A stretch of DNA of 48,293 bases from a virus (IMGVR_UViG_3300034965_000025:1-48293), one strand, 5' to 3'. Positions 1 through 48,293 are shown, counted from the first letter of the stretch. Notes: generated from the sequence alone by a model not told the origin. A program made the numbers and translations.

Positions 1-178
1 AGTTGGGTATTGATCGATGACAGACGCTCGGCAGCCAGGCCGGAGGCATCGGCAAATGCAGCCTCGGCAGCCTCAGCGGCCAGCGCATAGGCGGCCTTAA
101 TTTCCGACATGCCAGACCGTATCAGCGACGGCCAGCGCCTGCAGGCTGCGGTGTAGGATTTGTAGTATTCGGTGGATG

Positions 179-1561
179 TCATAACCCGGATTGGCCTTCG
201 GCATCAAGTATGTCCAGATACGGGGCATCTTTAAATGCCTTAAACTTGGCCGCATCCTGCCTCAACGCCCGGAACTCATCATAGGCCTCAATCGTGGCAG
301 CCGGATAAAACGCTTTCAACTGCGCATGAATTACCGGCCCCGGAACGCCGGCATCAGTCATCTTCTGGACGGCATCGGCCACCTTTTGGAATATGTCAGC
401 CTTGGTGGTTTCGCTCAAAGCGTCAAGCCTGTTCCATTCAACGCGGATATCGTTGGCCGGTGCCAGGATGTTGGCGCGGGCCTCGATTGCGGCGACCGCC
501 TGGAATACTGTCTGCCACTGGCGGGTATGCTGGCGTTGTTTTTTCCGGCAATAGGACATGAGCCGTTCCATCTGCTCTTCGCTGGATGCATGGTTCCCAG
601 TTGATACCAGCCCCCATGCAATCTCCGGGATACTGGAGCCTTGGACAATGGCATAAAACGCCATGTTCAGGTATTTCTCATATTCGGCCCCGGCACCCTG
701 GGGGAATACAAACGCTGTTTTCTCTTTCCCTGCCAAATTAATAATAAAATCCATGTTGTTTTTATCGACATCGATCAGGCTGGTAAACCCGTTATTCCGG
801 AGCCAATCGTTTACGTTTTCGGTTTCCTGGCTGACGAATGGCTGCATTTTTGCTAGGACCGTGGCCCATTGCAGTTTTACATCATGGTAGGTTTTCAGGT
901 CGGGTATAATTCGCTCAAGATCCGAATGGCCCCGGACCCGGCCAATATCTGGTTCATTGGCAAACGGTACCGGCATGATGCCAAGCGGGTTGCGCGATAC
1001 TGTAGCCACACCGTCGCGCTCATCACGTATCCGGTCGCGCGTCCAGGACCGATTGCGGTTGACGATCTTGGACGTGCCAAAGCTTGCTTGCACGGTTATC
1101 TGCTCGGTGCTGATTACCTCGGTTATCTCGCCAGTAGTGATATCGACAATAACGTCGGAAATCTTGTCATCGATGATCAATTCCAGGTCAGTCAGCCCGG
1201 TTGACAGGTTGAAAAAAGGCCAGACCCAGATAGTACCGTCGCCATGGCTGGATGCGTGGACGGCATCGAACTTAGTAATCGCTGACTCAACAAAATCAGT
1301 GAGGCGTTGCCGGACCTGTTCGCTTTCACAAACAGGAATCGGCACGCCCATGATGGCAATCGGGGTATGTATCGGCGCATAGGCCATGGCACCGGCCAGT
1401 TTGTATCCAGGGTACGTGTTATGGACCAGCCCCCGTGTCAACTCGCCATTGATCTTGATGTTTTCGGTCATATCGACCGCGAAAGGTGTTCGGCGGGTTG
1501 TCAGAACCGGATTTTCGGTATCCTGCGAAGCCTTGGTTTTTTTCCAGTCAAATATGCCCAT
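179..1561 (-). CDS. Portal protein (probable start MGIFDWKK at 1561)
   Basis: ~460 aa between TerL and MuF in gene order. NPLGIMPVPFAN...GHSDLE motif is typical of SPP1/A118-like portals. Confidence 0.8.
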   Translation of the reverse strand: MGIFDWKKTKASQDTENPVLTTRRTPFAVDMTENIKINGELTRGLVHNTYPGYKLAGAMAYAPIHTPIAIMGVPIPVCESEQVRQRLTDFVESAITKFDAVHASSHGDGTIWVWPFFNLSTGLTDLELIIDDKISDVIVDITTGEITEVISTEQITVQASFGTSKIVNRNRSWTRDRIRDERDGVATVSRNPLGIMPVPFANEPDIGRVRGHSDLERIIPDLKTYHDVKLQWATVLAKMQPFVSQETENVNDWLRNNGFTSLIDVDKNNMDFIINLAGKEKTAFVFPQGAGAEYEKYLNMAFYAIVQGSSIPEIAWGLVSTGNHASSEEQMERLMSYCRKKQRQHTRQWQTVFQAVAAIEARANILAPANDIRVEWNRLDALSETTKADIFQKVADAVQKMTDAGVPGPVIHAQLKAFYPAATIEAYDEFRALRQDAAKFKAFKDAPYLDILDAEGQSGL

Positions 1562-1569
1562 GGGCAAGG

Positions 1570-1598
1570 ATTATATCATTGCGGGGTTTAGGTGTAAA
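1570..1598 (-). promoter_or_regulatory. Sigma70-type promoter for the portal (near-leaderless)
   Basis: TTTACA-17-TATAAT, 8 nt upstream of ATG 1561, with no SD. Confidence 0.7.
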
Positions 1599-1611
1599 CC
1601 ATAGCCTGATG

Positions 1612-1640
1612 TTGACATATTACGCATTATGTGATAATAT
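1612..1640 (+). promoter_or_regulatory. Plus-strand promoter, TTGACR-N5-CGCA class
   Basis: TTGACA tatta CGCA ttatgtga TAATAT. Confidence 0.7.
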
Positions 1641-1657
1641 TGTGGCAAGGAAAATCT

Positions 1658-1978
1658 ATGAACAGTTTGAACAGTGTCTTGCTTGAAGGAAATCTGGTGG
1701 CAAATCCCGAGGAAATCAGAAACGGTGTTTGCGGTTTTACCTTTGAATCTTTCCGGTACAACAAGGTTGACGGTGATCGCGTATATGAAAAAGAAGTTTC
1801 GCGCTTCGACGTTGAGGTTTCCGGCGATCTTGGCAAGCGCTGCTATGATGAACTCGTCAAAGGTCGTGGAGTCCGGGTAGTTGGACGGTTGAAGCAAACC
1901 AGCGAAGGCGTCAGGATCATCGCTGAACACGTGGAATTCAAGCCGGTATTTGATACTGGTATAAAATCGGAGGAATAA
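1658..1978 (+). CDS. ssb: Short single-stranded DNA-binding protein (spirochaete-type SSB paralogue)
   Basis: OB-fold motifs LNSVLLEGNL..P and KGRGVRVVGRLKQ...IAEHVEF. No acidic DDIPF tail. Confidence 0.85.
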   Translation: MNSLNSVLLEGNLVANPEEIRNGVCGFTFESFRYNKVDGDRVYEKEVSRFDVEVSGDLGKRCYDELVKGRGVRVVGRLKQTSEGVRIIAEHVEFKPVFDTGIKSEE

Positions 1979-8419: not shown

Positions 8420-8806
8420 ATGGGCAAGCAAATTTATCACCATTACTCAAAATGGGAGGATTATAACGCTGGAATGTGGCGTAAGGTTAGCAAAAAACAG
8501 TCAATGGGATTTCTTGATGATGCCATTCGGTTTACTGGTGATCATGTTCTCTATGGCGAGTGGATGCTTAAGGTTATTGATCAATGGCCTAACGCGTGTG
8601 AACAAAATCTATCAGATATCGACCAAAACAGAAAAGCCTGGATCGGGCATGCGGCATGTTGCCTGCATCTTGGCTGCCCGGAATCGGTAACGAGAATGGC
8701 ATGGGCATATTTGACAAAACAGCAGCAAGATGATGCAAATAAATCGGCCGAAATCGCCATAAAAAAATGGGAAGAAAAAACAAAGTTCAGGGAAACAAAT
8801 GCCTAA
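8420..8806 (+). CDS. Hypothetical protein associated with the IbrA/IbrB-like pair
   Basis: YHHY..WE...GMW...WP..CE.NL...NR.AW.GHAACC. First gene of the operon. Confidence 0.65.
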   Translation: MGKQIYHHYSKWEDYNAGMWRKVSKKQSMGFLDDAIRFTGDHVLYGEWMLKVIDQWPNACEQNLSDIDQNRKAWIGHAACCLHLGCPESVTRMAWAYLTKQQQDDANKSAEIAIKKWEEKTKFRETNA

Positions 8807-10031
8807 AAAATACCTAACCACAAATGTACTTGAGGCTGCGCAAGAGCGGATTTCATGGACATTTGACAATTACGAAAAAATCTATTGCTCATTTTCTGGC
8901 GGAAAGGATTCGACATGCATGACTCACCTTGTTATGGAAGAAGCAATCAAACGCAATCGAAAGGTTGCATTGTTTTTCCTTGACTGGGAGGTGCAGATGA
9001 CACTTACCATTGAGCATGTCAGGCACATGTTTGAACTGTACGCCGATCATATCGAGCCTTATTGGTGTGCTATACCTATCCGCACATGGAATGGATGCAG
9101 CCAGTTTGAACCAGAGTGGACTTGCTGGGATAAAGACAAGAAAGATATTTGGGTAAGGCATCCGGATAAAATGAGTATCACCGATACAAGGAAATTCCCG
9201 TTTTATTATGACGGAATTACCTTTGAGGAGTTTGTTCCATTGTTTGGTCAATGGTACTCACAAGGTGAAAGGTGCGCGTGTTTTGTTGGCATTAGAACCC
9301 AGGAAAGTCTGAACAGATACCGGGCATTGTCAAAGAAAAAAGACACGTATCTGTCAAAAATGTACACCACTTGCATTGAAAAAAACCTTTGGAATGTGTA
9401 CCCGATTTACGACTGGAATACTGAAGATGACTGGCGATACCTGAGTAAGTTTGACAAGTGCTATAATAAGCTTTACGACCGTTTCTATCAGGCTGGCTTG
9501 ACGATAAACCAGATGCGGATTGACGAGCCGTTTGGCGATACTCAGGCCCGTGGCCTATGGCTTTATCAAATTATCGAACCGGCTTTATGGTCAAAAATGG
9601 TTCTGCGTGTATCAGGTGCTAATACATCAAACTTGTATAGCAATGAGACTGGCAACGTTTTGGGTTATCGCAATATAACTTTGCCACCAAACCACACTTG
9701 GCAGTCATTCGCTATGATGCTTTTGAATACGATGCCAAAAACTACTTCAGAGCATTACAAGGGCAAGATAGCGGTATACATCAAGTGGTTTTCGACTCGC
9801 GGTTATCCTGACGGCATCCCTGATGAATCACCCTGGGAACTTGAGTCTATCAATAAAGCTCCGGCTTGGCGGCGTGTTGTCCGTAGCTTATTGCGAAACG
9901 ATTACTGGTGCCGTGGCATGGGCTTCAGCCCGACAAAAAATAGCGCCTACGCAAAATACATGAATTTAATGAAAAAGCGCCGCAAGGAATGGAATATTTT
10001 TAACGATATGGAGAATGAAAAAGATGAATGA
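8799..10031 (+). CDS. ibrA: PAPS-reductase-like/DUF3440 protein (IbrA/YbdN family)
   Basis: PP-loop SFSGGKDS, GIRTQESLNRY, YPIYDW..ED.W, QMRI.EP and ND.WC..MGF motifs. Confidence 0.88.
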   Translation: MPKKYLTTNVLEAAQERISWTFDNYEKIYCSFSGGKDSTCMTHLVMEEAIKRNRKVALFFLDWEVQMTLTIEHVRHMFELYADHIEPYWCAIPIRTWNGCSQFEPEWTCWDKDKKDIWVRHPDKMSITDTRKFPFYYDGITFEEFVPLFGQWYSQGERCACFVGIRTQESLNRYRALSKKKDTYLSKMYTTCIEKNLWNVYPIYDWNTEDDWRYLSKFDKCYNKLYDRFYQAGLTINQMRIDEPFGDTQARGLWLYQIIEPALWSKMVLRVSGANTSNLYSNETGNVLGYRNITLPPNHTWQSFAMMLLNTMPKTTSEHYKGKIAVYIKWFSTRGYPDGIPDESPWELESINKAPAWRRVVRSLLRNDYWCRGMGFSPTKNSAYAKYMNLMKKRRKEWNIFNDMENEKDE

Positions 10032-16648: not shown

Positions 16649-19600
16649 ATGATCAAGTTTATTGAATGCCCTGATTTTCATCTATCGCCAAGTTGGCTCG
16701 AAACCTCCAAGCAATGCGCGGCAGCGGTCCGGAAAGCCGCCATTGACAACCAAGTCGACTTCATCGCCTTTCCTGGAGACTTCTGGGACCGGCCGGTACT
16801 TGCCAGTGACCAAGGCGGCATCAACGCCGCCCGCGATATCATCAAGTCACTGGTTGCCGTCTGCCCGGTGGTAGCCATTGAGGGAACGCCAAGCCATGAC
16901 GCGCCAGGAGCATACGGTCCGCTGACTGACTGCGGACTGCAATTGCTGTACCCGGGCAAAGCATACACCAACCTGCCTGGCGTGGTGCTGTTCGGAATTC
17001 CGGAGCTCAACAAAGACGGGATCCACGCGGCGCTGTCTGCCAGTTCGGAACAGGCCAACCTTGAGGCCGAAGGCATGTTGGCAAATTACGTTGCCGAATT
17101 CATCGCCCCACACCGGGAGCTACACGCCAACCGGGTGGCCGTCTGTCTGATCCATGGGAACGTCACCGATGCCCGCCGCGAAAACATGCAAGACATGGTT
17201 CTGAAGGCTTCCGATATCCTGATCAGGACGGAAATTTTGGAACCGGCAAACGTTGACCGGTTTCCGGTAGGCCATATCCACATCCCCTGGGAGTCCACCA
17301 TTGTCAGCGCCGGGTATGCCGGTTTTACAGGAATCGACGGCAACCCATTCGGCAAGACCGGATTCAAACCAGCCATGAACCTTGTCGCCATTGAAGCCCC
17401 TGGATGCAAGCCGGTAATCACCAGGATACCCTACGGTACGCCAGAGCGCCGCAAGATCACCAAGCCGCTGGCCGTCTACGATCCCGATATCGCCTACTGG
17501 CTGGACACCGACGACCAAGCGGCAGAATGCCCCACCGGACACGCCTGGAGTCGGGTAACCCACCGGCCAATCGAGCGTGAATCGGCGCTGGTCGAAGTCC
17601 ATCAAGAAATGTCACTGCCCGAAATTTTCCGGGCTTGGGACAAAAACGTCACCGCCTCGGTAATCGAAAAAGTCAAGGATATCAGCCGGACGGTAACCCC
17701 GCAGGCGCTTGAGCCACTTGATATCCAGGTGGCATCGGTGGAAATTGACGGGTGCATTTTCTGGAAAGACGGCTACATCAAGTTTGACATTGCCGAGTCA
17801 CCAGCCGGAGTTTCCCGCATGGCCGGCCGCATGGGCGACGGGAAATCCAGCCTGCTTGGTTTCTGCACCCCGTACCCGGTAATCGTCGGCAAGGATACCG
17901 AATCTGGCCGGACTTCTGCCATCAAGGAATTCTTTAATGGCGAAAATTCCCGCATTGAAAAGATCATTTACCGAAACGGGATCCAGCACCGGCACCTGAT
18001 CACCATCAAGGCAGCTCATACCAAATCAGCCAAGACCGAATGCTATCTATACATCGGGTCGGAAAACCAGCTTGATACCACCAGTTTTGATGAAATGATG
18101 GAAAAATGCGAGGCGCTGTACGGACCGTATAGTGATTACTTGCTGACTACGTTTTATGTCCAGCCGTTGCAATCCAGCCAGGGTCCCGGGTTGATGGCAG
18201 CCAAGAAGGTTGACGCGCGTAATGTTGTCCAGGCTATTGCCGGGGTAAACCGGGAATCCGAGTCCCGGTATTCGCTGGACCAGAAGAGCGCGACCGGAAA
18301 GGCCAGGGATGAAAAGGCAGCATGGATCGCTGGTGCGGAACAGTTTGTTGAATCAAGCGAAAGCGTACAGCTTGCAATTGATACCATGTCTGAGATAGGA
18401 CGCGATGCCAGCAACAAGATGCAGCTCCTTGCCGAAACCGGGAAAACAGCTAAGCAGGAAGTAGACCAACTGCAATCGCTGGCCAATGCATCACGTGCAG
18501 AATCCGACCGGAAGGCTGGAAACGAATACCGCAAAACAGAACTGACTACCAAGAAGGCAGGATTGCAGTTTTCCGCTAACATGCTTGAGTCGAATAAAGC
18601 CATGCTGGTCGATATTCTGGCAGCAAAACAGATTGAACAAAAAAACACCGATCTGAAAAATGCCTATGATACCGCTGTCCTGGACTGGAACCGGCGATTG
18701 ATGGAAGCCAAACAAGTGGTAGCATTGGCCAACCAAACGGAAAGCAGCAAGTATCAGGCAGCGCTGCGAGAATACAACGCGGCATATCAGGCTACCGTTG
18801 ACAAGATCGACACCGAAAACACCACCAAGCGGAACCAGTACAACCAGGCAATGGCTGAATATTCTGCCAGGAAATCAGCGCTTGAGGCTGATCAGACCAG
18901 AATGGAGGCCATTACCGTAACCGCATGCATCAAGTGCGGATATATCGAAGAAACTGCCAGCGCTAAATACCAGGAAGCGCAGCAGCGCATCAATGATATC
19001 AGGATCCTGCTTGCTGCCATGGTCGAACCAACGGCCCCGCAGTACGCCACCAGGCCGACGCCGGAACCGCCAGTTGAGCCAAACTACCAAACTGAGCCAG
19101 AAACCCTTTCAGAACCCCTTCCAGAGCCTCCGGCATACCTCCAGGCTGAAACCCCGCCATTCAGCGAAGAGTCAATTCGCGCAAAAATCAGCGAAGGCGA
19201 GATTGCTGGATCCAAGATTGCCGAAATCGACAGGGAATTGGTCGCGCTTGCTGCAATGACCTACCAGATTGACGAAACCGTTGACGCCCGCCTCCAGGAA
19301 GCCAACGCCAAAACCGAATCACTCCGCCAGCAGTATGCCGATGAACGATCCCGGAAGGAAAAGGCAGAGCATGAAATAACGGCGCTGACTACCAAGTTGG
19401 AATCAATCGCCGGCCAGCTGGCGAAAATTCAGGAGGCCCGCCTGGCACTGGAGACCATTGAGGCCAACCTGACCGACTGGACCTACATAGCCAAGGCATT
19501 CCAACCGGCAAACATACCGGCGCTGGAACTGGAAATGTCGATCCAGGCAATTGACTTTGAGGCAACGCGTATCCTGAAGCCCTTCAGCGAAGGCCAGTAT

Positions 19601-19954
19601 ACCATTCGGACGGAAGCCGCCGACGGGTTTGACATTCTGGTTTACGACGGGGAAACCGCCAAGGAAACCAGTTTTTTCAAGCGAAACCCTGGGCACAAGG
19701 CATTTTTTTCGGACACCTACACCAAGGCGCTAATCAGGCAGCGGAACGAACGGCAGCACCGCAAATACAGCCCGATCATCATGGATGAGGCCGACGCGCC
19801 AATAGAAGTGGAATCGATCCAATCTTATTATCAGATGCAAGATGCGTATTTTGATAAACTGGATTCGCGGGTGTTCGTGGTTTCCCACAAGGGAACCGGA
19901 CATATCGTCAATACGATTGATGTAAAGGAGTTACAAAAGCATGGGAATTCGTAG
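16649..19954 (+). CDS. Fused Mre11/SbcD metallophosphoesterase - Rad50/SbcC ATPase
   Basis: DFH, GDFWD, GTPSHD, HG and GHIH nuclease motifs. Then GRMGDGKSS Walker A, Q-loop, coiled coil with CIKC Zn hook, IIMDEAD Walker B and VVSH. Confidence 0.9.
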   Translation: MIKFIECPDFHLSPSWLETSKQCAAAVRKAAIDNQVDFIAFPGDFWDRPVLASDQGGINAARDIIKSLVAVCPVVAIEGTPSHDAPGAYGPLTDCGLQLLYPGKAYTNLPGVVLFGIPELNKDGIHAALSASSEQANLEAEGMLANYVAEFIAPHRELHANRVAVCLIHGNVTDARRENMQDMVLKASDILIRTEILEPANVDRFPVGHIHIPWESTIVSAGYAGFTGIDGNPFGKTGFKPAMNLVAIEAPGCKPVITRIPYGTPERRKITKPLAVYDPDIAYWLDTDDQAAECPTGHAWSRVTHRPIERESALVEVHQEMSLPEIFRAWDKNVTASVIEKVKDISRTVTPQALEPLDIQVASVEIDGCIFWKDGYIKFDIAESPAGVSRMAGRMGDGKSSLLGFCTPYPVIVGKDTESGRTSAIKEFFNGENSRIEKIIYRNGIQHRHLITIKAAHTKSAKTECYLYIGSENQLDTTSFDEMMEKCEALYGPYSDYLLTTFYVQPLQSSQGPGLMAAKKVDARNVVQAIAGVNRESESRYSLDQKSATGKARDEKAAWIAGAEQFVESSESVQLAIDTMSEIGRDASNKMQLLAETGKTAKQEVDQLQSLANASRAESDRKAGNEYRKTELTTKKAGLQFSANMLESNKAMLVDILAAKQIEQKNTDLKNAYDTAVLDWNRRLMEAKQVVALANQTESSKYQAALREYNAAYQATVDKIDTENTTKRNQYNQAMAEYSARKSALEADQTRMEAITVTACIKCGYIEETASAKYQEAQQRINDIRILLAAMVEPTAPQYATRPTPEPPVEPNYQTEPETLSEPLPEPPAYLQAETPPFSEESIRAKISEGEIAGSKIAEIDRELVALAAMTYQIDETVDARLQEANAKTESLRQQYADERSRKEKAEHEITALTTKLESIAGQLAKIQEARLALETIEANLTDWTYIAKAFQPANIPALELEMSIQAIDFEATRILKPFSEGQYTIRTEAADGFDILVYDGETAKETSFFKRNPGHKAFFSDTYTKALIRQRNERQHRKYSPIIMDEADAPIEVESIQSYYQMQDAYFDKLDSRVFVVSHKGTGHIVNTIDVKELQKHGNS

Positions 19955-42972: not shown

Positions 42973-43001
42973 TTGACACGTACCGCATTATAGACGATAA
43001 T
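42973..43001 (+). promoter_or_regulatory. Plus-strand island promoter, CGCA class
   Basis: TTGACA cgtac CGCA ttatagac GATAAT. Confidence 0.7.
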
Positions 43002-43018
43002 CATGGCAGGAGATTTTT

Positions 43019-43171
43019 ATGTCTAAGAAAAATTTAACATCTGTTATTCTTGCCTATAGCTTGTGGGCAAACAGTCTTTACGACATTGCGAATTCCAGGG
43101 ATAGGCATTCTGTCATATTCATCCCAAAGCGCAAAAAGAAAAAAGCCCACCAAAAGAAAGGCAGGAAATAA
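43019..43171 (+). CDS. 50-aa Lys-rich peptide (not in the ORF track)
   Basis: SD AGGAG; MSKKNLTSV...PKRKKKKAHQKKGRK. Confidence 0.55.
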   Translation: MSKKNLTSVILAYSLWANSLYDIANSRDRHSVIFIPKRKKKKAHQKKGRK

Positions 43172-43174
43172 ATC

Positions 43175-43471
43175 ATGGAAAAGTTTTTCATCATGAAGGA
43201 TACCGGCAAACAGGAAGTCGAAGGCAAGCGCTTGACGCTCACAGTCAACGGCACCACCGTCTGCCAAGCATTTGTCACGAACTATGGTCAAGACAGAACC
43301 GGTAGCCCGTGCGTGGTCACTGAAATGTCCAGTGGCCTCCAGGTTGGCCAAGGTCAGTCTGAAAAGGCCGCAAAGAAGCACGCCGAAGACCGAATTGCTT
43401 TTGTCGGCATTGAACGGTTTGGCAAGATGGTTGCTGATGCTGTTGCCAAATATGGGGTGGCGAACAAATGA
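43175..43471 (+). CDS. Hypothetical protein
   Basis: ORF with SD; coupled to the next gene. Confidence 0.6.
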   Translation: MEKFFIMKDTGKQEVEGKRLTLTVNGTTVCQAFVTNYGQDRTGSPCVVTEMSSGLQVGQGQSEKAAKKHAEDRIAFVGIERFGKMVADAVAKYGVANK

Positions 43472-43725
43472 AAACGATAGAAATTGTTTTTGACCAAAAA
43501 GGCGATTTTGAGGCAATAAACGCCGCCCGCCAGTGGTGCACTGACCACAATGTATCAGTAGGCAGCATGCAACGCGATGACCCAATGGGTTTATTGTATG
43601 GCGATTACGATATACAAAAGTGGCGCAATTTGTCCAAGCAAGAAATCAAAGAACTTGACGGAACCATAACCGGTGACAAAAGAAACGGGCCTGTTAAAAT
43701 ACAAATAAAGGATCTGGCTAAATGA
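43468..43725 (+). CDS. Conserved phage hypothetical protein
   Basis: GDF.A..AA..W...S.GSMQR..P...KWRNL...LDG..TGD.R.GPV. Confidence 0.7.
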   Translation: MKTIEIVFDQKGDFEAINAARQWCTDHNVSVGSMQRDDPMGLLYGDYDIQKWRNLSKQEIKELDGTITGDKRNGPVKIQIKDLAK

Positions 43726-44018
43726 AAACAATCTACATCAGCGGCCCGATTACCGGCCTCCCACTGGGAAACAAACAAGCATTCGACGCCATGCACGCTC
43801 GAATAATCGCCGCTGGGCATATTCCGGTCAATCCGCACGTCATATGCGCGAACCTGCCGGCAGGATCCAGCCATCAAGAATACATGCGAGTTTGCATTGC
43901 TCACCTGGCTGTAACCGACGCCATCATCATGTTACCCGGATGGGAAAACAGCAGGGGGGCGCGGGCCGAATACATGACAGCCACCTGGTGTGGGGTGGAA
44001 ATACTGGAGGAGATATGA
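43722..44018 (+). CDS. DUF4406 / nucleoside deoxyribosyltransferase-like protein
   Basis: IYISGPITG...NP...YMR.C...DAI.MLPGWE.S.GA.AE. Confidence 0.85.
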   Translation: MKTIYISGPITGLPLGNKQAFDAMHARIIAAGHIPVNPHVICANLPAGSSHQEYMRVCIAHLAVTDAIIMLPGWENSRGARAEYMTATWCGVEILEEI

Positions 44019-44200
44019 GGGTGAATCCAGAAGGAATGGATTTTGATTTTCACCTTTATATAAACAAAAAGCAAAAATCAGTCCACATACAAACCACCGA
44101 CGAACCTTTTCCAAATTCTTCTGGATGGGAATTCTTTTATTCTGGTAAATATGAAGATTGCCTATCACGATCAATAATGGTTCTCGATACATTCGATTGA
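44015..44200 (+). CDS. Small hypothetical protein
   Basis: ATGA coupling; SD GGAGG. Confidence 0.45.
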   Translation: MRVNPEGMDFDFHLYINKKQKSVHIQTTDEPFPNSSGWEFFYSGKYEDCLSRSIMVLDTFD

Positions 44201-44214
44201 TTATTGGAGAATAT

Positions 44215-44379
44215 ATGAGCAAGACCTGGCGCAGAGAAAACCGAATCAGACACAAGCGACTGCGGGAACGCAAGCATAACGGTGGGAAAGTCTTTTCCCA
44301 GCTTGATGCGCTTGGAATACCGGCCAAAGTGTTTGAGAACGAAATCGCGGCAATTAGGGAGTATGGCAATGAACGATAA
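44215..44379 (+). CDS. Small Arg-rich protein
   Basis: MSKTWRRENRIRHKRLRERKH; SD GGAG. Confidence 0.5.
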   Translation: MSKTWRRENRIRHKRLRERKHNGGKVFSQLDALGIPAKVFENEIAAIREYGNER

Positions 44380-44542
44380 AATCCAAAAGACAGTCCTGCT
44401 TACCTGCTATGCGGTCCTGGCCGCGTTATTTATTGGCGGAGGTGTCCAAGCATTCGACTGCCAGTGTTATATCGCGGCAATCGCTTGCACGTTTGGGTTT
44501 TTCTTTATGGCTGGGGCTTTTTATCAGGAGGCGAAGGCTTGA
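44369..44542 (+). CDS. Small two-TM membrane protein
   Basis: Two hydrophobic segments; SD GGAG. Confidence 0.55.
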   Translation: MNDKIQKTVLLTCYAVLAALFIGGGVQAFDCQCYIAAIACTFGFFFMAGAFYQEAKA

Positions 44543-44544
44543 AC

Positions 44545-44862
44545 ATGTGGATAATGAGCGGGCACGCGCGTGCCCGCCTTGGTGAGAGGTTTGCTATTGT
44601 TGGAACAGGTAACCTTAACTTAGTAATGGAATTGCTTACGTCATCAAAGGAAATAAACCCACAAAAAAGTGGTAAAGAAAAAGTATTGTTTACTTTCAAT
44701 GGTTTGAAAATAATCGCAGTCATCGATAGACAAGATAAAGTAGTATTAACGTTTTCACCAACCAGGGCAACCGATATTGCTTTTAAGATGGCTGGATTGA
44801 CACTTGAAACAAAAGTCGAAAAAGCAAACAGCTTTTACTATTATCAGGACGTTGCTGAATAA
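44545..44862 (+). CDS. Hypothetical protein with RelE/DUF4258-like pattern
   Basis: S.HA..R..ERF N-terminal helix and C-terminal VV.T strand. Confidence 0.4.
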   Translation: MWIMSGHARARLGERFAIVGTGNLNLVMELLTSSKEINPQKSGKEKVLFTFNGLKIIAVIDRQDKVVLTFSPTRATDIAFKMAGLTLETKVEKANSFYYYQDVAE

Positions 44863-46697
44863 TTCCGCCCATACCATTCGTCCAAATACGGAACCGATTC
44901 ACCAGCAGACCACCGCTTAATATCAGCGGTGGTTTCTTTTAGGTCGCGTAGGCGGGGGCGAATTTGACAGGCGCAATTGTGGGACGCGAATCCGTTGGCG
45001 ATAAAAGTGTGAGTATTGGCAACCGTTAAATTGTAGACATACCCCTTGTAATGTTCTGACTTTGCAGATACAATAGCGCTACTATGAGTGGTAAAATCAA
45101 TATTGATCGGTTGGTGCTGGTTGACTTGTTTTGTGACAAGAACCTCCCAGTTAACCAAATCGCCAAGATCCTTGGAGTATCCAGGGGTTGCGTTGGGAGG
45201 AACCTTATTGATAATGGTTTCTCCGTTCCTGGAATTTCCGAGGGGCATCACAGGAGTTACGCCAACGGGAGAATTGCCAATACTGGGCCTGCTCATGATG
45301 CCGTTAGGGGTGTCAGCCATACTGACGAACATCGATCCTCCATAGCTCAGTTTTACTCCGGAACAATCAGGAGCCAATACGAGCGCATTATGTATGATGC
45401 CTTGGTCAGTCTTGGAGAAAAGCCTTTCCCTAATTTGGCAGTCGGGAGATTCAATATCGATCTGGCTATCGAAGACGTAAAACTTGCCATCGAAGTTGAT
45501 GGCGGTTGTTGGCATACTACCGCTAAGAAAAGACTCAAAGATATTAAAAAAATTGAATTCATTGAGCCGCTTGGGTGGACAACTGTCAGATACAAATTTG
45601 ACAAGCGGGATGGATTCGACGTCAATGCCTATGCTCGTGATGTTGTCGCCAGGCTTAATATCATGCGCCAAAACCCAATCATCGCCGATTAAAAACGGAT
45701 GTCCAGGAGTTGCTTGGATTTTTCTACCATCAGAAATTAATTCAAGCAACTCACCATCGTGTTTTGTTTTCCAGCAGTGTGTTATAGCCTGGACTGTTCC
45801 ATCGTGACTGATGACAAAATCCCCTGGCACAAGTGATTCAATGGGAACCTCTCCACTTGGAGTCAGCACCATAGTTCCAGCCGGGTGGCAATTCGGATGC
45901 GGCTGGCTTGGAACATCGGCGGCTTTATATGGTGATCCGGCAGCAAGATCAGGGCACAAACAGGAATGCTGGGCTGTATTAATCCTCAACCAATCATACT
46001 CCCCAGTACACCCCGGATTCTGTTCACCTTGCATTACCGCCCCGATTTTCATCGACGCGCCCAACTCCGTCCTGACCAGCCGGAGCGCTCGCCAGTCAAC
46101 GTTTTTGACTACGACGTCGCCGTATTTTGCCGATGTGTAGGCTTTGTCCAGGCTACCGATCCCGCCTTTGGTATAGTCCCCAATTGACCGCGCAATGTCA
46201 GCTGTGCTCTTTCCCTGGGCAATCCCGGAGTTAATTAACCGCGTGATCTGAGTCTGGTAATCCCCACCAATCTCCCAACACTTGCTGGACAGCGTGTAGC
46301 CATCCTGGTACATGCGGTTTACCGTATCGGCAATCAGTCGCTGGTTTATTCGGACAATCATGTTTTCAATTCCGGTTCTGGTTACAGCTTCCGAACCGGC
46401 GAACAGGTCGCCAAGCAGTTCGGCATCGATGGCCCCATATAGTGACTGGCCAGCTGATACCACGGCCGGCACCTCAGCCAGCAGCGATTCAGCAATGGTG
46501 GCAGTAGCCTGGGCCAGTTGGGTATTGATCGATGACAGACGCTCGGCAGCCAGGCCGGAGGCATCGGCAAATGCAGCCTCGACAGCCTCAGCGGCCAGCG
46601 CATAGGCGGCCTTAATTTCCGACATGCCAGACCGTATCAGCGACGGCCAGCGCCTGCAGGCTGCGGTGTAGGATTTGTAGTATTCGGTGGATGTCAT
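44844..46697 (-). CDS. MuF/SPP1 gp7-like head morphogenesis protein interrupted by an intein
   Basis: RA.RLVRTE and C.DLA...PHPN|C.C signature, split by the intein; directly downstream of the portal. Confidence 0.9.
   Translation of the reverse strand: MTSTEYYKSYTAACRRWPSLIRSGMSEIKAAYALAAEAVEAAFADASGLAAERLSSINTQLAQATATIAESLLAEVPAVVSAGQSLYGAIDAELLGDLFAGSEAVTRTGIENMIVRINQRLIADTVNRMYQDGYTLSSKCWEIGGDYQTQITRLINSGIAQGKSTADIARSIGDYTKGGIGSLDKAYTSAKYGDVVVKNVDWRALRLVRTELGASMKIGAVMQGEQNPGCTGEYDWLRINTAQHSCLCPDLAAGSPYKAADVPSQPHPNCHPAGTMVLTPSGEVPIESLVPGDFVISHDGTVQAITHCWKTKHDGELLELISDGRKIQATPGHPFLIGDDWVLAHDIKPGDNITSIGIDVESIPLVKFVSDSCPPKRLNEFNFFNIFESFLSGSMPTTAINFDGKFYVFDSQIDIESPDCQIRERLFSKTDQGIIHNALVLAPDCSGVKLSYGGSMFVSMADTPNGIMSRPSIGNSPVGVTPVMPLGNSRNGETIINKVPPNATPGYSKDLGDLVNWEVLVTKQVNQHQPINIDFTTHSSAIVSAKSEHYKGYVYNLTVANTHTFIANGFASHNCACQIRPRLRDLKETTADIKRWSAGESVPYLDEWYGRNYSATS
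45046..45074 (+). promoter_or_regulatory. Predicted antisense promoter inside the intein coding sequence
   Basis: TTGTAA-17-TACAAT, 9 nt upstream of ATG 45084. Confidence 0.55.
45084..45692 (+). CDS. DUF559/Vsr-like endonuclease with N-terminal HTH and NUMOD3-like motif, antisense within the intein
   Basis: NQIAKILGVSRGCV (HTH), G.SHTDEHRSSIA (NUMOD3-like), S.YE...IDLAI...KLAIEVDG.CWH...D.KK......GW..VR (DUF559/Vsr). Confidence 0.9.
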   Translation: MSGKINIDRLVLVDLFCDKNLPVNQIAKILGVSRGCVGRNLIDNGFSVPGISEGHHRSYANGRIANTGPAHDAVRGVSHTDEHRSSIAQFYSGTIRSQYERIMYDALVSLGEKPFPNLAVGRFNIDLAIEDVKLAIEVDGGCWHTTAKKRLKDIKKIEFIEPLGWTTVRYKFDKRDGFDVNAYARDVVARLNIMRQNPIIAD

Positions 46698-48293
46698 AAC
46701 CCGGATTGGCCTTCGGCATCAAGTATGTCCAGATACGGGGCATCTTTAAATGCCTTAAACTTGGCCGCATCCTGCCTCAACGCCCGGAACTCATCATAGG
46801 CCTCAATCGTGGCAGCCGGATAAAACGCTTTCAACTGCGCATGAATTACCGGCCCCGGAACGCCGGCATCAGTCATCTTCTGGACGGCATCGGCCACCTT
46901 TTGGAATATGTCAGCCTTGGTGGTTTCGCTCAAAGCGTCAAGCCTGTTCCATTCAACGCGGATATCGTTGGCCGGTGCCAGGATGTTGGCGCGGGCCTCG
47001 ATTGCGGCGACCGCCTGGAATACTGTCTGCCACTGGCGGGTATGCTGGCGTTGTTTTTTCCGGCAATAGGACATGAGCCGTTCCATCTGCTCTTCGCTGG
47101 ATGCATGGTTCCCAGTTGATACCAGCCCCCATGCAATCTCCGGGATACTGGAGCCTTGGACAATGGCATAAAACGCCATGTTCAGGTATTTCTCATATTC
47201 GGCCCCGGCACCCTGGGGGAATACAAACGCTGTTTTCTCTTTCCCTGCCAAATTAATAATAAAATCCATGTTGTTTTTATCGACATCGATCAGGCTGGTA
47301 AACCCGTTATTCCGGAGCCAATCGTTTACGTTTTCGGTTTCCTGGCTGACGAATGGCTGCATTTTTGCTAGGACCGTGGCCCATTGCAGTTTTACATCAT
47401 GGTAGGTTTTCAGGTCGGGTATAATTCGCTCAAGATCCGAATGGCCCCGGACCCGGCCAATATCTGGTTCATTGGCAAACGGTACCGGCATGATGCCAAG
47501 CGGGTTGCGCGATACTGTAGCCACACCGTCGCGCTCATCACGTATCCGGTCGCGCGTCCAGGACCGATTGCGGTTGACGATCTTGGACGTGCCAAAGCTT
47601 GCTTGCACGGTTATCTGCTCGGTGCTGATTACCTCGGTTATCTCGCCAGTAGTGATATCGACAATAACGTCGGAAATCTTGTCATCGATGATCAATTCCA
47701 GGTCAGTCAGCCCGGTTGACAGGTTGAAAAAAGGCCAGACCCAGATAGTACCGTCGCCATGGCTGGATGCGTGGACGGCATCGAACTTAGTAATCGCTGA
47801 CTCAACAAAATCAGTGAGGCGTTGCCGGACCTGTTCGCTTTCACAAACAGGAATCGGCACGCCCATGATGGCAATCGGGGTATGTATCGGCGCATAGGCC
47901 ATGGCACCGGCCAGTTTGTATCCAGGGTACGTGTTATGGACCAGCCCCCGTGTCAACTCGCCATTGATCTTGATGTTTTCGGTCATATCGACCGCGAAAG
48001 GTGTTCGGCGGGTTGTCAGAACCGGATTTTCGGTATCCTGCGAAGCCTTGGTTTTTTTCCAGTCAAATATGCCCATGGGCAAGGATTATATCATTGCGGG
48101 GTTTAGGTGTAAACCATAGCCTGATGTTGACATATTACGCATTATGTGATAATATTGTGGCAAGGAGAATCTATGAACAGTTTGAACAGTGTCTTGCTTG
48201 AAGGAAATCTGGTGGCAAATCCCGAGGAAATCAGAAACGGTGTTTGCGGTTTTACCTTTGAATCTTTCCGGTACAACAAGGTTGACGGTGATC
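46516..48293. repeat. Terminal direct repeat, right copy
   Basis: Re-reads positions 1-1778, including the whole portal gene and the start of ssb. Confidence 0.97.
46694..48076 (-). CDS. Portal protein (second copy, in the terminal repeat)
   Basis: Same translation as 179..1561. Its stop overlaps the MuF start (ATGA). Confidence 0.8.
   Translation of the reverse strand: MGIFDWKKTKASQDTENPVLTTRRTPFAVDMTENIKINGELTRGLVHNTYPGYKLAGAMAYAPIHTPIAIMGVPIPVCESEQVRQRLTDFVESAITKFDAVHASSHGDGTIWVWPFFNLSTGLTDLELIIDDKISDVIVDITTGEITEVISTEQITVQASFGTSKIVNRNRSWTRDRIRDERDGVATVSRNPLGIMPVPFANEPDIGRVRGHSDLERIIPDLKTYHDVKLQWATVLAKMQPFVSQETENVNDWLRNNGFTSLIDVDKNNMDFIINLAGKEKTAFVFPQGAGAEYEKYLNMAFYAIVQGSSIPEIAWGLVSTGNHASSEEQMERLMSYCRKKQRQHTRQWQTVFQAVAAIEARANILAPANDIRVEWNRLDALSETTKADIFQKVADAVQKMTDAGVPGPVIHAQLKAFYPAATIEAYDEFRALRQDAAKFKAFKDAPYLDILDAEGQSGL

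What the first reader, a model, noticed from the sequence alone, without database searches (positions are those of the whole stretch)
44976..45890. Intein whose homing endonuclease is a separate gene on the opposite strand (both frames open)
Seen: MuF carries a 305-aa intein with all splicing motifs (C1, TxxH, block F, HN|C+1) inserted in the conserved PHPN|CxC motif. The central ~190 aa, where an in-frame LAGLIDADG/HNH domain normally sits, look like nothing in the intein frame. The reverse strand of that segment (45084-45692) encodes a clean 202-aa HTH + NUMOD3-like + DUF559/Vsr endonuclease. The two frames are in exact codon register, so the nuclease avoids TTA/CTA/TCA at all of its ~25 Leu/Ser codons. 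Its stop codon and last residues are antisense to the Hint segment PFLIGDDWVLAHDIKPGD. Established: inteins normally carry their endonuclease in-frame within the precursor. Inference: an endonuclease gene invaded a mini-intein in inverted orientation, and protein splicing removes the antisense-encoded junk polypeptide from MuF. The nuclease sits on the early-gene strand, so it could be expressed during replication, when homing is effective, rather than with late head genes. I know of no characterised example, but I cannot check the literature.
Basis: partly seen in the sequence, partly recalled or inferred. Interest (0 to 1): 0.95.

Follow-up and report, generated by a model that had tools for sequence, protein, structure and literature searches.

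The report
Intein hiding a backwards homing nuclease
A phage head-assembly gene carries an insert that likely splices itself out of the protein (an intein), and the opposite DNA strand of that insert encodes a conserved protein predicted to be the DNA-cutting enzyme that spreads it, with a predicted promoter written into the intein's own codons; the two-strand layout is real but a 2025 preprint already described it, so this is a new example rather than a new kind of element.

Summary
The MuF-like head gene (44844-46697, -) holds a 305-aa class 1 intein. A 202-aa ORF (45084-45692, +) lies antisense to it in exact codon register and encodes an HTH plus a Vsr-like nuclease. Residues matching all five I-Bth0305I (EDxHD) active-site positions are present.

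In 10 close relatives the central stretch is under purifying selection in the antisense frame (pN/pS 0.44) and not in the intein frame (1.07); the Hint ends show the reverse. The intein frame of the insert has no confident predicted fold. Intein-bearing, mini-intein and empty alleles are scattered over the MuF tree, as homing predicts.

The layout is known: Gosselin, Arsenault and Gogarten (bioRxiv 2025) describe full inteins with antisense VSR-like nucleases. This scan also holds 9 earlier notes of it on other DNA.

Added here: a sigma70-like promoter 9 nt before the start codon, at the same place in all 10 close relatives and fixed at synonymous sites; free-standing and apparently split-intein relatives; and spread into Jerseyviruses. 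Splicing, expression and cleavage are untested. Verdict: new member of a known kind.

The parts
44844..46697 (-). MuF-like head morphogenesis gene, 617-aa precursor (269-aa N-extein, 305-aa intein, 43-aa C-extein; 312 aa if spliced)
   Evidence: PHROG 1657 E 3e-30 for the N-extein; lies after the portal gene 46694-48082
44976..45890 (-). class 1 intein, C1 ... T61xxH64 ... H304-N305 | C+1, inserted in PHPN|CxC
   Evidence: empty alleles read PHxN|CxC without insert
45621..45890 (-). N-terminal Hint (splicing) segment, intein residues 1-90
   Evidence: pLDDT 74-92; Foldseek 26 matches at E<=1e-3, the listed ones inteins or Hint domains; pN<pS in 45 of 45 pairs for residues 1-66
45099..45620 (-). 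intein-frame insert, residues 91-264: stop-free, no confident fold, the shadow of the antisense gene
   Evidence: pLDDT <50 over 91-264; intein-frame pN/pS 1.07
44976..45098 (-). C-terminal Hint segment (blocks F and G); its codons also spell the antisense promoter and start codon
45084..45692 (+). antisense 202-aa ORF: N-terminal HTH, helical linker, Vsr/DUF559-like nuclease (E100, D126, D139, H144, D153)
   Evidence: antisense pN/pS 0.44, pN<pS in 45 of 45 pairs
45046..45074 (+). predicted sigma70-type promoter TTGTAA-17-TACAAT, ending 9 nt before the ATG; no Shine-Dalgarno visible, so a near-leaderless mRNA is inferred
   Evidence: 9 of 12 match, weak alone; same position in 10 of 10 close relatives; synonymous test; upstream sequence
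44907..44940 (+). terminator-like hairpin (11 bp) with T run, antisense to the C-extein; would stop + strand read-through from the small genes at 43175-44862 before the nuclease ORF
   Evidence: consensus match only, conservation not tested

Best explanation
This is a MuF intein whose central 606 bases also encode, on the opposite strand and codon against codon, a conserved HTH plus Vsr-like protein that is predicted to be a homing endonuclease, is likely transcribed from its own promoter inside the intein, and likely spreads the intein by cutting empty MuF alleles, while protein splicing likely removes the antisense 'shadow' peptide from MuF. Steps: (1) The late - strand mRNA gives a 617-aa precursor (ORF shown). 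(2) The Hint halves fold around a 174-aa unstructured loop and excise it, leaving 312-aa MuF (motifs, predicted fold and selection shown; splicing inferred). (3) Host RNA polymerase starts at TTGTAA-17-TACAAT and makes a near-leaderless + strand mRNA (conservation shown; activity inferred). (4) The 202-aa protein binds and cuts or nicks at or near the PHxN|CxC coding site of an intein-free allele in a co-infecting or resident phage, and recombination copies the intein in (fold and active-site residues shown; target and cleavage inferred from I-Bth0305I and from the allele distribution). The intein frame only has to stay free of stops over the insert; its amino acids there follow from selection on the nuclease.
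For: Selection switches frame with the anatomy: in 10 close inteins the insert has pN/pS 0.44 antisense against 1.07 in the intein frame, and the Hint-only ends 0.56 and 0.46 in the intein frame against 1.00 and 1.14 antisense (45 pairs); window vs L068 dN/dS 0.16 antisense in the insert. Of 50 rows examined, 36 (32 distinct) have a Hint match and a stop-free antisense frame, all in the same codon register. Natural control: in-register stops are 0 against 4.5-9 expected in 7 of 8 embedded loci tested (the eighth, GC-rich L113, expects only 1.7), but 2-10, as expected, in the 4 free-standing and 2 split loci. Fold: best PDB matches are 3hrl Z 10.3, I-Bth0305I 3r3p Z 10.1 (rmsd 3.0, 96 aligned) and Vsr 1cw0 Z 9.6; 3r3p tops Foldseek at E 2e-3; profile E 1.4e-5. 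I-Bth0305I E170/D196/N208/H213/D222 (PMC3239194) align to E100/D126/D139/H144/D153, invariant in 15 of 15. Distribution: empty, mini-intein (P0008) and full alleles exist at one site; on an N-extein tree 15 intein rows need 12 changes, well-supported branches force 9, and 108 of 500 shuffles are as low; 4 of 15 intein alleles have an empty neighbour at 91-93% N-extein identity; 70 of 500 phage records matching the Jerseyvirus gene carry the full insert. Promoter: summed match 95 against 76.5 +/- 2.6 in synonymous resampling, 0 of 20000 as high; the two -10 codons are the most synonymously fixed of 32 comparable Hint columns (ATT 9 of 10, GTA 9 of 9; others 0.33-0.80).
Against: No expression, splicing or cleavage data. 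The 10 relatives are not independent, so the promoter P value is too small; singly, 6 of 10 reach P<0.05 and 4 do not. The window's promoter scores only 9 of 12, and 10 such sites were found in 4 kb against 5.1 expected. More distant relatives do not keep it at the same spacing. The motif EVDGG[NC]W was a search pattern, so E137-W143 are conserved partly by construction. Foldseek found no match at E<=0.001. Patchy distribution also follows from repeated loss; the tree is the quick one and the one-clade test did not finish; 7 of its 15 intein rows are protein-only, so their antisense ORF was not read. No clear palindrome at the empty site (best mean self-complementarity 0.44), unlike the pseudo-palindromic target of dimeric I-Bth0305I. 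Gordonia and Jerseyvirus relatives lack the EVDGG..WH motif, so the family is not uniform.
Confidence: 0.8

Rival explanations
1. The nuclease gene is real but no longer drives homing here. It is a recently silenced passenger, or it has another job for the phage (DNA processing, competition with co-infecting phages), and the patchy distribution comes from loss and ordinary recombination.
For: No cleavage data; no target symmetry found; a mini-intein allele shows that the nuclease can be lost (P0008); 3hrl, a cellular DUF559-like protein, matches as well as I-Bth0305I.
Against: The ORF is intact in 10 of 10 close relatives, with pN<pS in 45 of 45 pairs. It sits at one conserved site over phages as distant as Gordonia and Salmonella phages, and intein presence is no more clustered than shuffled labels.
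Confidence: 0.13
2. The insert is removed or bypassed without cis protein splicing (single-site cleavage as in bacterial intein-like domains, or an RNA-level event), and the Hint domain only cleaves MuF.
For: Weak Pfam matches to Hint_2 and PT-HINT; a bacterial intein-like domain ties for the best Foldseek match (2lwy).
Against: All class 1 splicing residues are kept (C1, T61, H64, H304, N305 invariant in 11 of 11; C+1 in all 10 close loci). Exact excision restores the empty-allele sequence PHxN|CxC. The insert frame is kept free of stops only where the intein is contiguous.
Confidence: 0.05
3. The antisense ORF is a chance shadow of the intein's codon bias, or an assembly artefact.
For: Long antisense ORFs occur by chance in register with real genes (general knowledge).
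Against: Pfam matches above cut-off; confident predicted fold, mean pLDDT 82.8; selection in that frame; the same layout in 32 distinct loci, including isolated phages.
Confidence: 0.01

Closest known systems
Full inteins with anti-sense VSR-like homing endonucleases in actinobacteriophages (Gosselin, Arsenault, Gogarten; bioRxiv 10.1101/2025.01.02.630785; seen: abstract, Results part 1 of 3, sections 12 and 15, passages; figures and supplements not seen)
   Same: Contiguous intein, nuclease as a separate antisense ORF, Vsr/EDxHD-like fold with 3R3P as match, unstructured intein-frame insert, proposed origin by invasion of a free-standing nuclease. Minor capsid (MuF, IPR006528) is one of their four hosts of non-canonical nucleases, and a PhagesDB-type phage (Gordonia phage Angelicage) has a related antisense ORF in its MuF gene.
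   Different: Here an uncultured 46.5-kb phage outside their data set, about 30% identical to the Gordonia protein, with a different active-site motif. Their text does not contain the word 'promoter'. Which host proteins carry their VSR-like type is in a figure and supplement that I could not see; the minor capsid inteins that their text details have antisense LAGLIDADG.
I-Bth0305I, EDxHD homing endonuclease (Taylor et al. 2011, PMC3239194; seen: passages and section 17)
   Same: N-terminal DNA-binding region plus C-terminal Vsr-like domain; five active-site positions align.
   Different: Encoded in a group I intron of phage recA, 266 aa, two NUMOD repeats, shown to be a dimer cutting a pseudo-palindrome. 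The protein here is shorter, has an HTH, no NUMOD match, D at the N208 position, and no tested activity.
Fractured genes: split inteins flanking a free-standing Vsr-like or GIY-YIG endonuclease gene (Dassa et al. 2009, PMC2677866; seen: passages)
   Same: Vsr-like nuclease gene placed between the N and C halves of an intein, at the usual endonuclease position.
   Different: There the host gene is broken in two and needs trans-splicing; here the intein frame stays open across the nuclease. Two relatives (L103, L105) look split.
Antisense LAGLIDADG inteins (Synechocystis dnaX, Chloroflexus SpoVR-like; cited from the Gosselin preprint, originals not seen)
   Same: Homing nuclease on the strand opposite to a full intein.
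   Different: Other nuclease family and hosts.

Membership tests
Class 1 intein | C/S1, block B TxxH, terminal HN and C/S/T+1 | tested here: met
Class 1 intein | Hint fold formed by N- and C-terminal segments | tested here: met
   predicted model and Foldseek matches to solved inteins; Pfam PF14890 above cut-off
Class 1 intein | In-frame insertion at a conserved site, with empty alleles in homologues | tested here: met
Class 1 intein | Self-excision with extein ligation | not testable with these tools
   needs a splicing assay
EDxHD / Vsr-like homing endonuclease | Vsr-like catalytic fold | tested here: met
   3r3p Z 10.1, 1cw0 Z 9.6; Pfam MTES_1575 and DUF559 in 15 of 15
EDxHD / Vsr-like homing endonuclease | E, D, x, H, D active-site residues | tested here: met
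   E100, D126, D139, H144, D153 by alignment to 3r3p, invariant in 15 of 15; D139 lies inside the search pattern
EDxHD / Vsr-like homing endonuclease | N-terminal DNA-binding region with NUMOD repeats | tested here: inconclusive
   HTH matches in 12 of 15; no NUMOD family among those listed
EDxHD / Vsr-like homing endonuclease | Site-specific cleavage of the element-free allele; homodimer; pseudo-palindromic target | not testable with these tools
   only an indirect look: no clear symmetry in 36 empty sites
Anti-sense VSR-like HEN intein (Gosselin et al. 2025) | Contiguous intein ORF | tested here: met
Anti-sense VSR-like HEN intein (Gosselin et al. 2025) | VSR-like ORF on the antisense strand inside the intein | tested here: met
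Anti-sense VSR-like HEN intein (Gosselin et al. 2025) | Intein-frame insert without recognisable structure | tested here: met
   pLDDT <50 over residues 91-264 with an 11-sequence alignment; low confidence does not prove disorder
Fractured gene / split intein (Dassa et al. 2009) | Host gene and intein broken into two ORFs | tested here: not met
   single ORF in the window; met in appearance by relative L105
Canonical intein with in-frame LAGLIDADG or HNH | Nuclease domain in the intein frame | tested here: not met
   no such Pfam match at E<=0.1; selection acts on the other frame

The most novel reading that the evidence does not exclude
The same bases carry three messages: the splicing domain on one strand, and the nuclease gene with its promoter and near-leaderless start on the other (the conserved His codon CAT/CAC reads ATG/GTG backwards, and I-V codons spell the -10 box). 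This lets the nuclease be made independently of the late head operon. One nuclease family is caught at MuF in all states (free-standing and antisense just 3' of the gene, embedded in a contiguous intein, between split intein halves, and lost from a mini-intein), which would be a natural series for how inteins gain and lose homing nucleases.
Probability: 0.4. Interest if true: 0.55.

Novelty: new member of a known kind. Interest (0 to 1): 0.3.

Why it matters
It is a clean natural case of about 200 codons of two-strand coding that gene callers miss: 3 of the 4 isolated-phage records opened annotate only the head gene, and the fourth a truncated antisense ORF. Nobody appears to have tested such an element at the bench (the preprint is computational; my 7 searches found no test). 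Cultured phages with and without the insert exist, so homing by an antisense nuclease, and the idea that inteins gained nucleases from free-standing genes, can be tested directly. The layout itself is not new.

Tried and rejected
Single-sequence search with the intein in viral contigs found nothing; alignments were needed. phmmer of the nuclease against PDB was not significant (3r3p E 0.55). No RNA holder was listed; the one DNA run held only short pieces of relatives and no joint across the intein, which says nothing on expression. The terminator-like site at 45701-45719 after the nuclease stop overlaps block B codons and has no common hairpin plus T run across the 10 relatives: rejected as a conserved part. 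A palindromic target at the empty site was not found. NUMOD3 was not found. The careful extein tree and its one-clade test did not finish; the quick tree is used. Six of the 50 rows (L081, L106, L107, L108, L109, L112) match only the nuclease core and were left out of all later counts; duplicates L084, L085, L095, L099, L101 and L110 and truncated L093 and L097 were left out of the nuclease tree. Literature searches found the Gosselin preprint but no experimental study of an antisense intein nuclease and no report of the embedded promoter; subscription journals are mostly outside the library. A Jerseyvirus paper (PMC8425127, passages) notes an intein in the capsid morphogenesis protein, and those passages do not mention an antisense ORF. 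No earlier notes on this genome.

Full report
Observation. The window is a circular-looking phage contig of about 46.5 kb: its first and last 1,778 bases differ at 2 positions. Terminase, portal, protease and tail genes lie on the - strand, primase and helicase genes on the + strand. The ORF 44844-46697 (-) encodes 617 aa; its N-extein matches PHROG head morphogenesis families (best E 3e-30). Residues 270-574 (44976-45890) are a 305-aa intein: C1, T61xxH64, H304-N305, C+1, inserted in PHPN|CxC, Pfam Intein_splicing E 7.5e-16. On the + strand, 45084-45692 encodes 202 aa with Pfam MTES_1575 (E 1.1e-11) and DUF559 (E 4e-5) above cut-off and weak HTH matches. The frames are in exact codon register and none of 25 Leu/Ser codons is TTA, CTA or TCA; 6.8 such stops are expected and 0 of 1000 resamplings gave none.

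What each frame encodes. An AlphaFold2 model of the intein (11-sequence alignment) is confident at both ends and below pLDDT 50 over residues 91-264; Foldseek gives 26 matches at E<=0.001, led by solved inteins. The antisense protein gives a confident model (mean pLDDT 82.8). Its C-terminal half aligns to 3hrl (Z 10.3), I-Bth0305I 3r3p (Z 10.1, rmsd 3.0, 96 residues) and Vsr 1cw0 (Z 9.6); Foldseek ranks 3r3p first but only at E 2e-3. The active-site residues named for I-Bth0305I, E170, D196, N208, H213 and D222 (PMC3239194 section 17), align to E100, D126, D139, H144 and D153 (my mapping from the alignments), all invariant in 15 of 15 relatives. The stretch E137-W143 was a search pattern, so its conservation is partly by construction; E100, D126, H144 and D153 lie outside that pattern.

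Relatives. Searches with the nuclease alignment gave 14, 28 and 3 loci in viral, metagenome and genome contigs; with 4 isolated-phage regions and the window this makes 50 rows. Of these, 36 (32 distinct) have a Hint match and a stop-free antisense frame, always in the same register; 6 (4 distinct) are free-standing; 2 have stops in the intein frame; 6 match only the nuclease core and were dropped. Where the insertion site is on the contig and was located (not for L093, L094 or L113) it is an HP/H..|C motif of the MuF type; Pfam Phage_Mu_F hit 2 of the 4 embedded hosts scanned (L113, L114; not L074, L092). tblastn finds the nuclease in 66 of 50,697 phage records at E<=1e-5, 52 of them Salmonella and 8 Gordonia phages, mostly under genes annotated as head morphogenesis.

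Selection. In 10 close inteins (45 pairs) the insert has pN/pS 0.44 in the antisense frame (pN<pS in 45 of 45) and 1.07 in the intein frame (11 of 45). The Hint-only ends show the reverse: 0.56 and 0.46 in the intein frame (45 of 45 each), 1.00 and 1.14 antisense. These are uncorrected ratios near saturation, and the two frames are not independent, but the switch follows the anatomy. The 6 antisense stops counted in the overlap are the terminal stops of slightly shorter ORFs (translations). In-register stops are absent in all 8 embedded loci tested (4.5-9 expected in 7, 1.7 in GC-rich L113) and present at the expected level in the 4 free-standing and 2 split loci. So the nuclease sequence is selected for protein function, and the intein frame is selected to stay open where, and only where, the intein is contiguous.

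Expression signals. TTGTAA-17-TACAAT at 45046-45074 ends 9 nt before the ATG; no Shine-Dalgarno is visible. Alone this is a weak match. The same position carries a -35/-10 pair in 10 of 10 close relatives (for example TTGACA-17-TATTAT in L073), each 9 nt before an ATG or GTG that is the reverse of the His codon CAT (8) or CAC (2). The summed match is 95 against 76.5 +/- 2.6 when the intein protein is kept and codons are resampled; singly 6 of 10 reach P<0.05. The two codons that spell the -10 box are the most synonymously fixed of 32 comparable Hint columns. Relatedness inflates these numbers, although synonymous sites elsewhere in the Hint segments are largely saturated (pS 0.63-0.71). More distant members do not keep this spacing; the three Guernseyvirinae loci instead show TGCTATAAT (an extended -10 match, label from my own knowledge) opposite the last intein codons and GAGG before the ATG. 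A + strand hairpin with a T run at 44907-44935 would stop read-through from the small + strand genes upstream. I infer an independent, near-leaderless transcript; there is no RNA evidence either way.

Mobility. The family has empty alleles, one mini-intein allele (P0008) and full alleles at one site. On a quick tree of 57 N-exteins, 15 intein rows need 12 changes, well-supported branches force 9, and 108 of 500 label shuffles are as low. Four of the 15 have an empty neighbour at 91-93% identity, and for two of them the nearest intein-bearing extein is only 43-46% identical. Among 500 phage records matching the gene of Salmonella phage LP31, 70 have a match over at least 80% of it; listed empty alleles reach 94% identity in the flanks while listed intein-bearing ones go down to 72%. 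This is what homing predicts; repeated loss is not excluded, and 7 of the 15 rows are protein-only.

Mechanism. Most likely (0.8): late transcription gives the MuF precursor, which splices out the intein with its 174-aa loop; a promoter in the intein's C-terminal codons drives the antisense nuclease, which cuts empty MuF alleles and spreads the whole intein. Shown: ORFs, motifs, predicted folds, selection, distribution. Inferred: splicing, transcription, timing, target and cleavage. Rivals: a real nuclease that no longer homes or has another role (0.13); cleavage without splicing (0.05); chance or artefact (0.01).

Other states of the same nuclease. In L080, L098, L100 and L102 the gene is free-standing, on the opposite strand, directly 3' of an intein-free head gene ending in an EHP[NQ]GT motif; that these hosts are MuF-like rests on the motif and position, and Pfam gave only a portal match for the fused protein of L080. 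In L105 the MuF N-part plus N-intein ends at a stop, and a separate 68-aa ORF holds the C-intein and C-extein; L103 shows the same C-half. Free-standing and split nucleases each form one supported group in a quick tree of 36 proteins, but the tree has no root, so the order of events is open.

Comparison with what is known. Gosselin, Arsenault and Gogarten (bioRxiv 10.1101/2025.01.02.630785; I recalled the paper, then read the abstract, Results part 1 of 3, sections 12 and 15 and passages) report full inteins with anti-sense VSR-like nucleases, match them to 3R3P, find the intein-frame insert unstructured, list minor capsid among the hosts of non-canonical nucleases, and propose invasion by a free-standing gene. 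They cite earlier antisense LAGLIDADG inteins. Their figures and supplements were not available, and these may list the MuF-Vsr pairing explicitly. Dassa et al. 2009 (PMC2677866, passages) described Vsr-like genes between split intein halves. PMC11855218 (abstract only) describes an out-of-frame HNH in a phage methylase insert. The element here meets every testable feature of the Gosselin class. This scan holds 9 earlier notes of the same layout on other DNA, 8 of them shown; I looked them up after my own tests and they add no evidence.

Verdict. Real, well supported and ordinary for its recently described class: new member of a known kind, interest 0.3. The conserved embedded promoter and the series of free-standing, embedded, split and mini states are the parts not found in the preprint's text or in my searches.

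Noticed in passing
L105 869-2481 (-), L103 about 1780-1930 (-): Apparently naturally split MuF intein: the N-half ends at a stop, the C-half restarts at its own Met (68-aa ORF ending HN|CRC...), and the same nuclease lies antisense between them. Looks like a fractured gene with the nuclease on the opposite strand.
   Followed up: partly
L080 1923-2576, L098 1926-2519, L100, L102 (+): Free-standing relatives of the nuclease, antisense and directly 3' of an intein-free head gene. In all 4 a different antisense frame is open (214-311 codons; P 0.015-0.15 each); in L098 that ORF runs from the head gene's stop to the protease start, which may keep translation coupled across the insert.
   Followed up: partly
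L114-L116 (Salmonella phages LP31 and vB_StyS-sam, Pantoea phage AH01), L113 (Gordonia phage Angelicage): Cultured phages carry the antisense ORF in the MuF intein, unannotated or truncated in their records, with variant active-site motifs (EVFGGGWAC, EVHRSPQH). The Guernseyvirinae loci show an extended -10 match opposite the intein's last codons and a GAGG ribosome site.
   Followed up: partly
window 42973-44935 (+): A block of small + strand ORFs between the MuF gene and the Clp-type protease, with a strong promoter match (TTGACA-17-GATAAT, 11 of 12) and a terminator-like hairpin; one ORF (43722-44018) matches a nucleoside 2-deoxyribosyltransferase PHROG. The block is absent in L001, where MuF and protease overlap.
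   Followed up: partly
window 1-1778 and 46516-48293: Terminal duplication of 1,778 bases with 2 mismatches: probably the overlap of a circular assembly.
   Followed up: yes
window 8799-10031 (+): PAPS-reductase-domain plus DUF3440 protein (E 4e-14, 2e-36) among the early genes, possibly part of a DNA-modification or anti-restriction module.
   Followed up: no
window 16649-19954 (+): 1101-aa ORF with no Pfam or PHROG match.
   Followed up: no
L074 3-3563 (-): MuF with the antisense-nuclease intein followed by InPase and DUF5661 domains; many hosts are long MuF fusion proteins.
   Followed up: no
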